This document shows, piece by piece, positions 19,210 through 55,266 of a stretch of DNA of 64,000 nucleotides. How positions within the stretch are numbered: the first letter of the stretch is position 1; every line of letters begins with the position of its first letter. Under the pieces are notes generated by a model, which did no database searches, was not told the DNA's origin, and saw only the letters and a list, made by a program, of their open reading frames with translations. This stretch comes from Pocillopora damicornis (taxonomy: Eukaryota): contig NW_020844379.1 of the NCBI RefSeq assembly GCF_003704095.1, positions 1 to 64,000 on the forward strand, in the 5' to 3' direction. A program made the translations under genes and the position numbers.

Positions 19210-20847
19210 CTACTCTTCAAATTCATCTGCTTTGGATACGGTTTTAAAAGTTATATCACTGCTCTTCTCTGTTTGGCGAACATTATTTACTATGATAAAA
19301 ACGAAAAGGACTATCAAGCTTAATTCTCCAAAGACTAGAAAGGCAGTGCTGGTACCAAATTCATGAACCATCACACCTCCCAAGAGACCGCCACTAGCGT
19401 AACCAAGACCGGTGTAAAATCCATTAACGAGACCTTGAAGCGTTGTTGCCACGCCAGGCTCTGCACCAACATGAGACACAAACGAGGACCAAACAGCTGC
19501 AGTGGTTACACCTTGAATAAATTCGATAGGCAAGAAAAGCCACGGTCTGCTACAATAAGAATAGTAGAAGAATCGCAGAGCGTAGCATAGGAGTCCGAGG
19601 TACATCACCCGGAAATGTCCAATGTTTCGTAACAGTCGCTCTGACAGTAGATATACTACTACTTCTGCAGTACTGTTGGATAGAATAATCAGTCCAAACA
19701 GTATTTGTTGGGCCCCTAACTCGCGAAGATGCCAAAATAGAAACGTCTGTATAAAACCAAAAGCTGTTCCACAAAAAAATACAATGAATAGAAAAAACGC
19801 GTAATCAAATTTCTTCAGCACTCTTAGTCCTCCTATGGCTGTTTCCTTGCATTGTGTGTGATCAACGGGCTTAAATTTAAAACGACTTGCTACGATCAAT
19901 GCAGTCACCATGAAAACTCCAAAAACATAAAAACACGGAATATAATTAATGTCCATTTCCTTGCTACAAGGATTAGGGGTTCTCCGTCCACTTATCGATG
20001 TACCAACGATGAAAGCTGTCATACCATAACCAACTGATCCCCAAAAAGCCTGCTTGCCGTATTCACGGCTATCTTCGGCGAGGATCTGCAGAGTGGCTGT
20101 ATCTGCCAAACACTGCGTCGGTGATGCAAAAATCTGTCCAATTACTATAACACAAACCATGAAAATGAACAATCGAGAGGAGTCGGATATTTTCTCAGGT
20201 GATGGGTAATATTGTAGATTCGGAAAAGTGTCCTCTTTGAGTTTAGTCGACTTCTCAGGCTCGTAGTCATTTGAGAAAAAGCTTAAGGCCCACGGGAGAT
20301 ATTTGCTGGTTCCAAAAATAGATTCATAAGAGCGAGTGTGGTCATGAACAATTTCGTCTTTAGATTGGTGATTTCGCGATATTACCTCGGTGAAGTTAGT
20401 CAGTGTAGTAGAGCCATTTTGGAATAATGACAAAGACAAAGAGTTCATCTCATAACAGGCTTTCGGTTGTTCTCCTATCGGTATTATTGCCAATGAAAAT
20501 GTTGACAATAGCCAAGCTGACAATCCTAATAATAAAACAAATTTACTTTTATTGAAGCGATCCGCAAGGGCTCCCCAAACAGGCGTAAAAACAAACTGAA
20601 CAAGCGACCGAACTGCCACAAGAATACCAAGCTGTCGCGGTGATAGGAACAACTGTTTAAAATACAATGATAGATAAGGCCACAGCGATCCAAAAGCCGA
20701 GAAGTAGAACAGGTAAAATAGTTTGGACACCAGTCGCTTTCGGTTAATTTTACAATCGAAGCGATGTTTTGAATTCTCATCTCCTTCTTCATCATTGACA
20801 CAAAGTCTCTCAGAGGACATTTTTGAATCCTTCGGGCATTTTTCCAT
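19210..20847 (-). CDS. MFSD6: MFSD6-like major facilitator superfamily transporter, paralogue 1 (single coding exon seen)
   Basis: 12-TM pattern with motifs KLFYLFYFSAFGSLWPYLSLYFKQL, WGALADRF, ADTAT...YGKQ, FLFWHL. First in-frame ATG is 20847 (the ORF-track start is TTG). An upstream coding exon via an acceptor near 20921 is possible. Confidence 0.88.
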   Translation of the reverse strand: MEKCPKDSKMSSERLCVNDEEGDENSKHRFDCKINRKRLVSKLFYLFYFSAFGSLWPYLSLYFKQLFLSPRQLGILVAVRSLVQFVFTPVWGALADRFNKSKFVLLLGLSAWLLSTFSLAIIPIGEQPKACYEMNSLSLSLFQNGSTTLTNFTEVISRNHQSKDEIVHDHTRSYESIFGTSKYLPWALSFFSNDYEPEKSTKLKEDTFPNLQYYPSPEKISDSSRLFIFMVCVIVIGQIFASPTQCLADTATLQILAEDSREYGKQAFWGSVGYGMTAFIVGTSISGRRTPNPCSKEMDINYIPCFYVFGVFMVTALIVASRFKFKPVDHTQCKETAIGGLRVLKKFDYAFFLFIVFFCGTAFGFIQTFLFWHLRELGAQQILFGLIILSNSTAEVVVYLLSERLLRNIGHFRVMYLGLLCYALRFFYYSYCSRPWLFLPIEFIQGVTTAAVWSSFVSHVGAEPGVATTLQGLVNGFYTGLGYASGGLLGGVMVHEFGTSTAFLVFGELSLIVLFVFIIVNNVRQTEKSSDITFKTVSKADEFEE

Positions 20848-52600: not shown

Positions 52601-55266
52601 GCTGTAAAATGATGATCGGGAAAGTAAGATTGGAGCAGCAGTTTAAACAAGAGGAGGAGAGGAGTACAGAAGAAACGATTTCAGAAGATCAAAAAATTAA
52701 AAGGGAAAGTACAGCAATTGAAATAGAGAGCGAGGAAGAGTTGTACGGATTGGCTCTCATACTCCGTAACACAGAAGACGCCGCCAAAAAGAGCCGTGAT
52801 TTGACAGGGATACCAGATAAAGAGCGGTCTGATGATCATGAAAGCAGTAGAGGAGAGAAAACAAATGGACCGTCTGAAAACAAAGAGAAAGCCTGTTTAA
52901 GATGTTGTCAAAATATTAACAGAAGCCTCATTATTTACAAAAGTTTTTACTTCTTTTTCTTTTCGGCTGTGGGTTCTTTATTTCCTTATCTCGCAGTGTT
53001 TTATAAACAGCTATGGCTTTCCGCCCATGAAACAGGAATACTGATCGGAATCAGACCATTGATTCAGCTTTTCGGAACGCCTATGTGGGGAGTCATCGCA
53101 GATACATACAAGAAAAGCAAAGTGATCTTTGTGGTGTCACTAGTTGCATGGTTGGTATCGAACTATTCCTTGTCTCTCGTATCTCCTGTTTTTCATTTGG
53201 GCGTTTGCAATGATAACGCTACCTTAACAATCATCCAAGAAATTATGAAAGAAATGAAAAACAGAACGATCTCACAGAAGAATAACACAACTCATCATAA
53301 ACATTCTACGCATAAACCCTCCATACCTCTTTCAGCAAACTCTGGAAATTCTAGTAATCATTGGTTTGAGATAGTCAGGAAAGAGAGGGCAAAACATCCT
53401 TCGAAGCGAAACGCAGGTCAACCATTGAAGTATACACTTCAAAACAAAGTAAACAAAGTGCTTCAGGTAAATTATCATGTAAACATTTTGTACGATTTGA
53501 TGGAAAAAACCGACAGTACTTTGGTTTCTAAAAGAGGAATCAAACAGATACATCGATTTTTAGACAGATCAACACTCCATACAAGTAGCCCCCCGATAGT
53601 GAACAAGTCAATGGTTCGTAAGCGAAGTGTTTATAAAGGAAGATTTCTTCATGCGTCACTCAACGATAATCAAAGAGGGAGCAATAACAAACGTCTAATC
53701 ACAATAGGACAGTGCTTCAAATCGGGCAGTGATGAACAAAGGTTACGCCGAGCCAGCTTGGATAAAAGCGCACTGATGTCCAAACCAGATATCTTAACAC
53801 TTTTCATGAATTCAAGTAGTATCAACGAGGACGGGGTTTTCATTCAATTTTACAGCGGATGGATGGAAAGAGTTTTCGACTCCCTGAACATGGCTGGGGA
53901 GTATCCATGGCCTCTGGACACAGTGGCGGACTATGAGTCAACACAGGAGGCACATGAGTGGCTAAATCCACATGATCATGACTTGTTTACCATCCTGTTT
54001 GTTATCACAGCTACTGGTACACTGATTGCTGCACCAGCTATTACCTTAGCTGACACTGCCACACTGCAGAAGCTTGGTGAGTATATTGAAGTTGTCGATA
54101 TTCAAAAATTTTCTTGATTATTTCTTTTGGGAACATACGTAAACTTTGTTGTGATACCTTGTTTTACTTCTGAGTAGATTTTTTGGGTAAAGCAATGAAA
54201 TACGTTATTGATATCACAACACTACTGATAACATGTATAAGTAATAGTGGTGGTACTAGTGGTAGTAGAAGTAGTCATAGTAGTAGTAGTAGTGATCGTG
54301 ATCGTGATCGTGATCGTGACCGTTATTATGATTGTATGTTTTCCTTCGTAAGGTAACAGGCCAGAGGACTACGGCAAGCAGCGTTTATGGGGAGCGTTTG
54401 GCTGGGGACTAGCAGCCTTTATTGTTGGATCAAGTCTAAGCACAGTTGAGGAACTGAGTAACTGTAACAATCCTTTGAGTGTAGATTACCTGCCATGCTT
54501 TTACGCTTTTGCGTGTCTAATGGGCGTGGCTGTCTTGATTGGTGCTTTGTTTGAGTTTGACGAAAAAGAGTTACACGAAAGTAGCATCTGGCAAGGGCTT
54601 GCATTGTTGTGTGACTGTCAATATATATACTTCATCTTCACAATTCTGTTCTGTGGAAGTGCACTGGGCTTTATAGAAACTTTCTTGTTTTGGCATTTGC
54701 AAGATTTAGGCGGTACACAGTTCTTGTTCAGTACCATCACTGCCATCCACTGTATTTCTGAGGTGGCAGTTTACAGTTTTTCTGGTACGTTCATCAAATG
54801 GCTAGGGCATCACCGGGTTTTGTACGTTGGACTTTCATGCTATATAATCAGATTTTTTGGCTATGCCCTTATAACAAACAGCTGGGTGGTACTACCTTTT
54901 GAGATCCTTCACGGCTTGTCCACAGCAGCCGTATGGTCAGCGGCCGTCGTCTTCGTGGGACTCATTCCCGGGGCGCCTGCAACAATGCAGGGAATTCTTG
55001 GTGGTGTGCACTGGGGTCTGGGTAATGGTGGTGGAGGAGTGCTCGGTGGATTATTAATCACTTACGCTGGTGCTACCACCTCTTTCCTCATATTTGGAGT
55101 AATCAGCATAGTAGACTTGAGTTTATTCATACTTTTGAACAACATGGAATTTTTCAACTGTTTTGAGTGGTCCAAAGGGAGTGGTACACAATCAGAGTAT
55201 AGTCCAGTAGAAGATGAAGCCTATAAAAATGAAAAACTAGAACCAGATTATGACGATCTTTACTGA
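49653..55266 (+). CDS. MFSD6: MFSD6-like MFS transporter, paralogue 7 (~809 aa, very large luminal loop)
   Basis: Exons 52602-54076 and 54353-55266 join in phase 1 (LQKL-G|NRPEDYGKQRLWG). Tentative first exon 49653-49693 (MSEMDLVDVDMMEP, phase 2, cc|gtaag) fits the acceptor at 52602; otherwise the start is ATG 52609. Confidence 0.82.
49752..49894. mobile_element. MITE-like element, copy 2 (inverted relative to 33204-33344)
   Basis: Reverse complement aligns with 33204-33344 along its whole length with few mismatches. Confidence 0.75.
51437..51602. repeat. Imperfect palindromic repeat resembling Penelope/retrozyme-type elements with a decayed hammerhead core
   Basis: Outer arms aactgagttgataatgtaaattggccac / gtggccagtttacatcgtaaactccgtt; inner arms agctaacatttcga / tcgaaacgtcagct. 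Confidence 0.5.
54242..54319. repeat. Compound microsatellite (tag)n + (gtgatc)n in an intron of paralogue 7
   Basis: Directly visible. Confidence 0.8.

What the first reader, a model, noticed from the sequence alone, without database searches (positions are those of the whole stretch)
19210..55266. Seven-copy, deeply diverged MFSD6 array
Seen: seven intact paralogues in mixed orientation (-,+,+,+,+,-,+) with conserved TM motifs but unalignable termini and loops, implying old, retained duplicates. Known: vertebrates have only MFSD6 and MFSD6L. MFSD6 is an orphan transporter, was described as macrophage MHC receptor 2, and was reported as an enterovirus D68 entry receptor. Inference: subfunctionalised solute transport (secretory granule or symbiosome) or a diversified surface-recognition family.
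Basis: partly seen in the sequence, partly recalled or inferred. Interest (0 to 1): 0.75.

Follow-up and report, generated by a model that had tools for sequence, protein, structure and literature searches.

The report
Ancient cnidarian MFSD6-like transporter cluster
A stony coral carries seven intact, very old copies of an orphan membrane transporter side by side; the copies are shared with anemones and jellyfish relatives that have no algal symbionts, and they differ in their likely cargo pocket, so they look like a set of specialised carriers rather than a symbiosis or immune novelty.

Summary
Seven intact PF12832 (MFSD6-like) genes lie at 19210-55266 in orientation -,+,+,+,+,-,+, share 29-46% identity, and have synonymous sites near chance. 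A GDSL-hydrolase gene separates G6 from G7. The array is not a coral innovation. Each copy has its own orthologue group; G3 has orthologues in Nematostella, Hydra, Clytia and the myxozoan Henneguya, and an anthozoan-only origin is rejected (AU p=2e-61). G2-then-G3 adjacency recurs in Nematostella. All seven fall in one clade whose named members are all cnidarian, apart from the bilaterian MFSD6/jef clade. The model is a 12-helix MFS fold nearest NupG, YegT and LacY. The Asp/Arg/Trp sugar-binding triad is kept, the proton-coupling acid is absent, and pocket residues are fixed within but differ between paralogues (G1 Arg to Ala in 11 of 11). These differences are not enriched over other membrane columns (p=0.18). 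Best reading: an old, stable cluster of carriers with diverged cargo. Symbiosome-specific and immune-receptor readings are disfavoured. Substrate and expression are untested.

The parts
19210..20847 (-). G1, MFSD6-like transporter, single coding exon, 545 aa; the LacY-R144-equivalent Arg is Ala
   Evidence: (PF12832 E 1.4e-80)
24174..25709 (+). G2, MFSD6-like, single coding exon, 511 aa
   Evidence: (E 4.9e-78)
28168..29757 (+). G3, MFSD6-like, single coding exon, 529 aa; the slowest-evolving copy, with orthologues across Cnidaria
   Evidence: (E 1.3e-83)
31105..32758 (+). G4 exon 1 (protein 608 aa); phase-1 intron 32759-32869 after the TM11 T-x-Q motif
32870..33042 (+). G4 exon 2 (TM11b-TM12)
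38358..39690 (+). G5 exon 1 (protein 505 aa); intron 39691-40117 at the same position as in G4; pocket Arg is Lys
40118..40302 (+). G5 exon 2
40693..42372 (-). G6, MFSD6-like, single coding exon, 559 aa; 86-87% identical to Stylophora pistillata proteins
   Evidence: (E 1.4e-78)
43555..47664 (-). Unrelated GDSL/SGNH hydrolase gene (1369 aa, long low-complexity stalk) that interrupts the array
   Evidence: (PF13472 E 1.6e-17)
52609..54076 (+). G7 exon 1 (protein 793 aa; 265-aa outer loop); start codon taken as the first Met; phase-1 intron 54077-54352 after TM4
54353..55266 (+). G7 exon 2

Best explanation
The seven genes are an ancient tandem radiation of one MFSD6-family (PF12832) carrier in early cnidarians. 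Most splits predate the Anthozoa-Medusozoa divergence, and the copies have since been kept as stable orthologue lineages under purifying selection, at least partly still clustered. Each protein is a 12-helix alternating-access MFS carrier with a glycosylated outer or luminal TM3-TM4 loop. The cargo is probably a small polyhydroxylated solute (sugar, glycoside or nucleoside-like) held by the LacY/NupG-type Asp(TM4)/Arg(TM5)/Trp(TM5) triad. Transport is probably facilitative or coupled in a non-LacY way, because the LacY E325 and NupG D323 positions are Thr and Ala. G3 is probably the broad housekeeping copy; the others have changed cargo or location. Shown: gene anatomy, family, tree, pocket residues. 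Inferred: age ranking, cargo class, coupling, cell-type division.
For: (66 rows, 477 columns): all seven fall in a 37-row clade (96/95) holding 11 organism-named rows, all cnidarian, plus 3 EukProt ids and 16 unnamed rows. Each copy pairs with outside orthologues at 97-100 bootstrap. (28 rows): AU rejects a seven-gene clade (p=7.6e-5) and an anthozoan-only clade (p=2e-61). G3 is 75% identical to Nematostella, 62% to Hydra and Clytia, 52% to Henneguya. Nematostella model P0004 is the C-half of P0078 (G2 clade, 100% over 289 aa) fused to P0008 (G3 orthologue, 97%), which implies G2 then G3 on one strand; 12-TM model (pLDDT 79), best matches NupG (Z 39.3, rmsd 3.2, 373 aligned) and YegT (Z 38.1, rmsd 3.5, 374 aligned). 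D227, R403 and E420 are invariant in every row that covers them in all ten groups; R245 is R except A in 11 of 11 G1 and K in 3 of 3 G5; position 345 is Q/K/K/R/M/E/E in G1-G7 and F in 20 of 20 bilaterian rows; pocket columns are more conserved within groups than other TM columns (0.94 vs 0.85, p=8e-5).
Against: Fixed between-group differences are not enriched at pocket columns (5 of 21 vs 35 of 250, p=0.18; among columns conserved within groups 5 of 19 vs 35 of 138, p=0.56), so ordinary long divergence could explain them. The best family model is the putative 3-phenylpropionate permease HcaT (E 1e-18 to 5e-23, far below its cut-off), not a sugar carrier. The LacY/NupG mapping rests on an alignment at 13-19% identity, and TM7 is gapped. 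Several unrelated MFS folds score Z 33-37. Linkage outside the window rests on a fused model, on ids and on shared longest-contig values, not on fetched DNA. Clytia P0047 and P0070, and Nematostella P0305 versus the other Nematostella rows, do not share a contig value. There are no expression or transport data. G5 and G7 groups have only 3 and 4 rows.
Confidence: 0.6

Rival explanations
1. Symbiosome transporters: the copies expanded to exchange metabolites with dinoflagellate symbionts.
For: The window's nearest named relatives are scleractinian corals (Stylophora 86-87% to G6), which host symbionts (recalled). A sugar-type pocket would suit photosynthate export. No organism-named non-coral orthologue was seen for G1, G5 or G7.
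Against: G2-like, G3, G4 and G6 lineages are in Nematostella; G3 and G4/5 lineages are in Clytia; the G4/5 lineage is in Hydractinia; G3 is in Hydra and Henneguya. An anthozoan-only origin is rejected. Later co-option of one copy is not excluded.
Confidence: 0.07
2. A diversified surface-recognition (self/non-self or microbe-binding) family that uses the variable outer loop.
For: The outer loops differ in length (65-265 aa) and sequence between paralogues and carry 1-6 N-glycosylation sequons. Human MFSD6 serves as an enterovirus receptor (abstract starts of PMC13503871 and PMC12452593).
Against: No recent duplicate, gene conversion tract or pseudogene was found. Orthologue groups are stable across more than 500 Myr (age recalled). 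The outer loop diverges no faster than the cytoplasmic tails (G3/P0001 loop 71 of 88, N-tail 14 of 27; G1/P0121 loop 71 of 101, N-tail 26 of 36, C-tail 12 of 20). A near-conspecific G3 fragment is identical over 401 aa, and one for G6 differs at 3 of 142 loop residues. The transport pocket is conserved.
Confidence: 0.06
3. Same cargo, different place: the copies are biochemically near-redundant and are kept for distinct cell-type, organelle or dosage roles.
For: Pocket differences are not enriched. N- and C-tails, which would carry sorting signals, differ widely; Y-x-x-hydrophobic motifs occur in the G3 and G7 tails but in only 16 of 60 G3-group tails.
Against: Radical fixed changes occur at canonical binding positions: Arg to Ala in 11 of 11 G1, and a charge reversal at position 345 between G2-G4 and G6/G7.
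Confidence: 0.2
4. Some copies (G1 above all) are non-transporting sensors or scaffolds built on the MFS fold.
For: G1 lacks the Arg that LacY needs for binding (role recalled; alignment), and this loss is fixed in 11 of 11 group members. No canonical proton-coupling acid is present in any copy.
Against: G1 keeps D227, E373, R403 and E420 equivalents and an aromatic residue at 252, and its TM core is strongly conserved among orthologues (71% to P0083). A changed cargo explains this equally well.
Confidence: 0.07

Closest known systems
Bilaterian MFSD6 / Drosophila jet fuel (jef) orthologue group (PF12832)
   Same: Same Pfam family and 12-TM layout, large TM3-TM4 loop, the same D227, R245, W252, E373, R403 and E420 equivalents; core identity 40-44% to Tachypleus P0133 in 5 pairs.
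   Different: A separate clade (100/100) from the cnidarian clade; G7 plus that clade is rejected (p=0.0014). Pocket differs: F345, H370, H427, Q455, H459 equivalents versus K/R/E/Q/M, C/S, T/N/S and others. In the 120 listed hits most named species appear once; repeats are Tachypleus, Centruroides and bdelloid rotifers. Vertebrate MFSD6 and MFSD6L were not in my trees.
E. coli NupG / YegT (nucleoside:H+ symporter family) and LacY (oligosaccharide:H+ symporter family)
   Same: Top structural matches. LacY E126/R144/W151/R302 align with D227/R245/W252/R403, and NupG R136/T140/F143/E264 with R245/S249/W252/E373 (functional roles of these residues recalled).
   Different: 13-19% identity. The proton-coupling acids LacY E325 and NupG D323 align with Thr and Ala; LacY E269 aligns with Cys or Ser. 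A 65-265 aa loop is inserted between TM3 and TM4.
Bacterial PPP family (HcaT-like putative 3-phenylpropionate permeases)
   Same: Best NCBIfam model for 4 of 4 MFS genes scanned; nearest bacterial hits; shares the Y-G-x-x-R-L-W-G-S motif.
   Different: Scores 66-82 bits against a cut-off of 259; about 380 aa without the large loop; HcaT's substrate is itself annotated as putative.
Other MFSD6-like subfamilies of invertebrates (Haliotis asinina P0316, Fopius P0321 clade)
   Same: Also multi-copy: four representatives hold two complete MFS units in one model (P0128 88%, P0129 83%, P0196 33%, P0229 44% between units), the signature of fused tandem genes.
   Different: A distant clade (about 25% identity to the window genes); those four records are unnamed, so their taxa are unknown.

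Membership tests
MFS_1_like / MFSD6 family (PF12832) | Pfam PF12832 match above the gathering score | tested here: met
   7 of 7 genes (8 exon-level queries), 94-282 bits against a cut-off of 25.2
MFS_1_like / MFSD6 family (PF12832) | 12-TM MFS fold with a large loop between TM3 and TM4 | tested here: met
   G3 model: 12 long helices, disordered 130-193; Z 39.3, rmsd 3.2, 373 aligned to NupG. Only G3 was folded; the other six by alignment
Bilaterian MFSD6/jef orthologue group | Branches inside the clade of named bilaterian MFSD6/jef proteins | tested here: not met
   Separate clades, 96/95 and 100/100; AU p=0.0014 for G7 plus jef clade. Co-orthology of the whole cnidarian clade to that group remains open: the fork joining them is unresolved
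Vertebrate MFSD6 versus MFSD6L | Orthology to either vertebrate gene | not tested
   No organism-named vertebrate sequence was listed, and none was in the trees
LacY/NupG-type H+ symporters | Sugar/nucleoside-binding Asp/Glu(TM4), Arg and aromatic(TM5) | tested here: met
   Met in G2, G3, G4, G6, G7; Arg is Ala in G1 and Lys in G5
LacY/NupG-type H+ symporters | TM10 proton-binding acid (LacY E325, NupG D323) | tested here: not met
   Thr or Ser, and Ala, in 7 of 7; invariant E420 and E373 equivalents might substitute (inference)
LacY/NupG-type H+ symporters | Measured solute transport | not testable with these tools
   Needs an uptake assay
PPP family (HcaT) | NCBIfam PRK11128 score above cut-off | tested here: not met
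   66-82 bits versus 259 in 4 of 4 scanned
Diversifying immune/allorecognition arrays | Birth-and-death turnover: young copies, conversion tracts, pseudogenes | tested here: not met
   None within the window; stable orthologue groups
Diversifying immune/allorecognition arrays | High allelic polymorphism or dN/dS above 1 in the ectodomain | tested here: inconclusive
   Protein-level proxy only: the outer loop is no faster than the tails; no population DNA was available
Symbiosome transporters | Restricted to, or expanded in, symbiotic taxa | tested here: not met
   Orthologues in Nematostella, Hydra vulgaris, Clytia, Hydractinia, Henneguya; their non-symbiotic state is recalled; G1, G5 and G7 lack organism-named orthologues
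Symbiosome transporters | Expression in alga-hosting cells or location on the symbiosome membrane | not testable with these tools
   Cell atlases and their supplements could not be read

The most novel reading that the evidence does not exclude
The cnidarian ancestor already held a linked cluster of about six MFSD6-type carriers, each with its own cargo (basic pocket in G2-G4, acidic pocket in G6/G7, Arg-less pocket in G1). The cluster is deployed by cell type, perhaps in cnidocytes or gland cells given that even a reduced myxozoan keeps G3, and G1 has become a non-transporting sensor. The set would then be a natural mutagenesis panel that reveals the substrate of the orphan human MFSD6.
Probability: 0.15. 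Interest if true: 0.65.

Novelty: new variant of a known kind. Interest (0 to 1): 0.38.

Why it matters
MFSD6 is still listed among atypical, putative solute carriers (abstract start of PMC5627054), and I found no report of its cargo in the listings. An old cnidarian radiation with fixed, radical differences at mapped pocket positions gives a small, testable panel for finding the family's substrate and coupling. It is also a case of microsynteny kept between a coral and an anemone, and perhaps medusozoans. It does not appear to explain coral symbiosis or immunity. Tandem duplication is common in coral genomes (title of PMC10236652, listing only), which lowers the surprise.

Tried and rejected
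(1) Hidden eighth copy or pseudogene: none by tblastn at E 0.01. (2) Recent duplication or conversion: the longest DNA match between genes is 548 bp at 64%, and fourfold sites are near chance. (3) A solved MFSD6 structure: none by sequence or among the listed fold matches; absence from these lists does not exclude one. (4) Enrichment of paralogue-specific residues in the pocket: not significant. (5) Conserved tyrosine sorting motif: 16 of 60 G3-group tails, rejected as a family feature. (6) Conserved furin-type site in the G4 loop: 3 of 15, rejected. (8) Literature: ten searches. MFSD6+coral gave 4 papers and MFSD6+Nematostella gave 2; by title and abstract start none describes this array. The searches with relaxed term counts listed no paper containing MFSD6. 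Only listings and abstract starts were seen; no full text or supplement was read, and single-cell atlas supplements may hold expression data for these genes. (9) No complex prediction was run, since no binding claim is made. (10) Metagenome and viral contig collections stayed unchecked; the bacterial genome collection was not scanned because it does not bear on a cnidarian locus.
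Full report
OBSERVATION. Six-frame translation shows long frames at the stated places. All match Pfam PF12832 MFS_1_like far above the cut-off. G1, G2, G3 and G6 have one coding exon. G4 and G5 each have a phase-1 intron at the same point in TM11, and G7 has a phase-1 intron after TM4. With GT-AG joins all seven read without an internal stop (505-793 aa). The orientation is -,+,+,+,+,-,+. Identity over the 21 pairs is 28.8-45.7%. Fourfold-degenerate sites are 0.19-0.42 identical against 0.25-0.30 by chance, the highest being G1/G2 on 76 sites, and the longest DNA match is 548 bp at 64%. 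No further copy or remnant was found. A 1369-aa GDSL/SGNH gene lies between G6 and G7. The nearest named relatives are scleractinian (Stylophora pistillata 86-87% to G6), so the window is probably from a close relative of that coral (inference).

AGE AND RANGE. A search with G3 returned 202 proteins among 8000 candidates, of which 120 were listed. They include Nematostella (75%), Exaiptasia (68%), Hydra and Clytia (62%) and the myxozoan Henneguya (52%), far above the identity between paralogues. A search with a G6-led alignment (117 of 8000 candidates) added Montipora, Acropora, Stylophora and Nematostella (49%) orthologues of G6. A profile search of 50%-identity representatives found 1696 proteins at E 1e-30 or better. 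Of its 145 new listed hits I left out 7 with vertebrate-type motifs and, for the tree, 2 more for coverage. A maximum-likelihood tree of 66 hand-picked rows (477 columns, LG+G4) puts all seven genes in a 37-row clade (bootstrap 96, SH-aLRT 95). That clade holds 11 organism-named rows, all cnidarian, 3 EukProt ids and 16 unnamed rows. Ten named bilaterian MFSD6/jef proteins and 2 unnamed rows form a separate clade (100/100). The fork joining these two clades and a third, unnamed group is unresolved. Each window gene pairs with outside sequences at 97-100 bootstrap. The G3 group contains anthozoans, hydrozoans and a myxozoan. The G4/G5 group contains Nematostella P0082 and a Clytia/Hydractinia branch. 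AU tests on 28 rows reject a seven-gene clade (p=7.6e-5), an anthozoan-only clade (p=2e-61) and G7 joined to the bilaterian clade (p=0.0014). G1, G6 and G7 branch outside the G2-G5 clade (98/98), which already contains anthozoan-medusozoan splits. So about six lineages probably existed in the cnidarian ancestor (inference from topology; no medusozoan orthologue of G1, G2, G6 or G7 was seen by name). The TM11 intron gives independent support: 12 of 15 G4-group, 14 of 19 medusozoan G4-like and 2 of 3 G5-group rows stop there, against 0 of 61, 15, 11 and 50 in G3, G2, G1 and G6. Unnamed rows outside the clade stop at the same point, so the intron may be ancestral.

LINKAGE ELSEWHERE. Nematostella model P0004 is the C-terminal half of P0078 (G2 clade; 100% over 289 aa) followed by P0008 (G3 orthologue; 97%), which implies G2 then G3 on one strand, as here. 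P0008, P0078 and P0082 share the longest-contig value 22,031,953. Other shared values link G3+G4+G6 (942,836), G2+G4+G6 (453,806), G3+G6 (1,386,867), G4+G6 (927,228), G1+G2-like (8,178), and G3+G4-like rows that branch with medusozoans (881,187; 5,966,203); ids Seg1190.11/.13 and gene3020/gene3021 are near-consecutive. These are proxies. Against them, the two Clytia rows and Nematostella P0305 do not share values with their partners, which may reflect different assemblies or real dispersal.

IS IT ROUTINE? Among the 120 listed of 1214 hits, most named bilaterian species appear once in the jef clade; repeats are Tachypleus, Centruroides and bdelloid rotifers. A second, distant MFSD6-like clade exists in molluscs and insects (P0316, P0321). 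Four representatives that branch with it hold two complete MFS units (33-88% identical to each other), the mark of fused tandem genes. The language-model atlas lists arthropod, chordate and cnidarian MFSD6-like clusters at 0.99. So multi-copy and tandem MFSD6-like genes are not confined to cnidarians, but I could not count copies per genome. That teleosts have two mfsd6 genes is recalled; the hit names '6-A' and '6-B' reflect that naming.

MECHANISM. The G3 model (28-row alignment; mean pLDDT 79, pTM 0.79) has 12 membrane helices and a disordered TM3-TM4 loop. Foldseek ranks NupG, LacY and YegT first, and the second aligner ranks NupG (Z 39.3, rmsd 3.2, 373 aligned) and YegT (38.1) first, with unrelated MFS carriers at 33-37. 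I aligned E. coli LacY, NupG and HcaT through bridging bacterial and animal hits. LacY E126, R144, W151 and R302 fall on G3 D227, R245, W252 and R403; NupG E264 falls on E373; LacY K319 falls on E420. The roles of these residues are recalled: E126/R144/W151 bind sugar, and E325 (LacY) and D323 (NupG) carry the proton. Those two acids align with Thr/Ser and Ala in all seven genes. Across orthologue groups assigned by hand from the trees and best hits, D227, R403 and E420 are invariant in every row that covers them. R245 is Ala in 11 of 11 G1 and Lys in 3 of 3 G5. Position 43 is mostly F/L/W/Q/L/I/V. Position 345 is Q/K/K/R/M/E/E (F in 20 of 20 bilaterians). Position 423 is Q/P/P/S/S/Q/H. Pocket columns are more conserved within groups than other TM columns (0.94 vs 0.85; p=8e-5; 271 of 310 columns scored). 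Fixed differences between groups are not enriched there (5 of 21 vs 35 of 250; p=0.18). The best NCBIfam model is the putative phenylpropionate permease, far below cut-off. I therefore infer alternating-access transport of small hydroxylated solutes, uncoupled or coupled in another way, with cargo diverged among copies (confidence 0.6). The cargo itself is not shown.

RIVALS. Symbiosome: the duplications predate any coral symbiosis and occur in taxa without dinoflagellates (state recalled), though one copy could have been co-opted later. Surface recognition: loops vary from 65 to 265 aa and are glycosylation-competent, and human MFSD6 is an enterovirus receptor (abstract starts of PMC13503871 and PMC12452593). 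But turnover is absent, and among orthologues the outer loop changes no faster than the cytoplasmic tails. The 'macrophage MHC receptor 2' label is recalled and was not checked. Same cargo in different places remains plausible (0.2). A non-transporting G1 is possible (0.07).

LITERATURE. Ten searches, seen as listings and abstract starts only, showed no description of a cnidarian MFSD6 array. PMC5627054 lists MFSD6 and 6L among atypical SLCs, and PMC10236652's title reports pervasive tandem duplication in corals. Full texts and supplements were not available, so expression data in cell-atlas tables may bear on these claims.

VERDICT. It is a cnidarian subfamily radiation of a known orphan family, not a symbiosis or immune novelty. 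It is moderately useful as a panel for finding the family's substrate. Novelty: new variant of a known kind. Interest 0.38.

Noticed in passing
window 43555-47664 (-): Single 1369-aa frame: a hydrophobic segment near residues 65-85 (by eye), about 1050 aa of Pro/Ser- and His/Lys/Arg-rich low-complexity stalk, and a C-terminal SGNH/GDSL domain with G-D-S-L, G-x-N-D and D-x-x-H motifs (PF13472 E 1.6e-17). The nearest atlas cluster is cnidarian (0.93), followed by bacterial and viral clusters (0.92). Possibly a membrane-anchored esterase; whether it travels with the array was not tested.
   Followed up: partly
window 2055-3428, 6802-7350, 11641-12243, 15465-16499 (+): Long low-complexity frames (Pro/His/Tyr/Gly-rich and acidic) with no Pfam match; they may be exons of one or more secreted structural proteins.
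   Followed up: partly
window 17956-18252 (+): Exon with a thrombospondin type 1 domain (PF00090 E 8.8e-10), ending about 1 kb from the G1 stop, tail to tail.
   Followed up: partly
window about 59318-64000 (-): Multi-exon STAT-type gene: SH2 exon 61595-61864 (E 2.1e-7) and a weak STAT linker match at 62103-62285 (E 0.003); it appears to run off the window.
   Followed up: partly
window 33204-33343 and 49754-49893: A 140-bp repeat in inverted orientation, 92.9% identical; probably a small dispersed element.
   Followed up: no
G4 and G7 outer loops; bilaterian jef-clade hits: R-x-K/R-R (furin-type) sites in the G4 and G7 loops, and in 15 of 20 bilaterian jef-clade loops but only 3 of 15 G4-group loops; no chance background was computed.
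   Followed up: partly
all seven genes: Cys just before TM1 in most group members (60 of 61 in G3; 5 of 20 bilaterian), and typically one Cys each in loops 3-4 and 5-6; possible palmitoylation site and disulfide (inference).
   Followed up: partly
P0078, P0063, P0066, P0067, P0068, P0144: This sister group of G2 has different pocket residues from coral G2 (W43, F252, A341, A423, S427, W459 equivalents); it may be a diverged orthologue or an eighth lineage absent from the window.
   Followed up: no
P0146, P0157: Unnamed rows at the base of the bilaterian jef clade; if non-bilaterian, a true MFSD6 orthologue may exist apart from this array.
   Followed up: no
window 54240-54332: Short tandem repeats (periods 3, 6, 18) inside the G7 intron.
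   Followed up: no
window 56038-56584 (+): Two overlapping frames of 154 and 177 aa downstream of G7 with no Pfam match; unexplained.
   Followed up: partly
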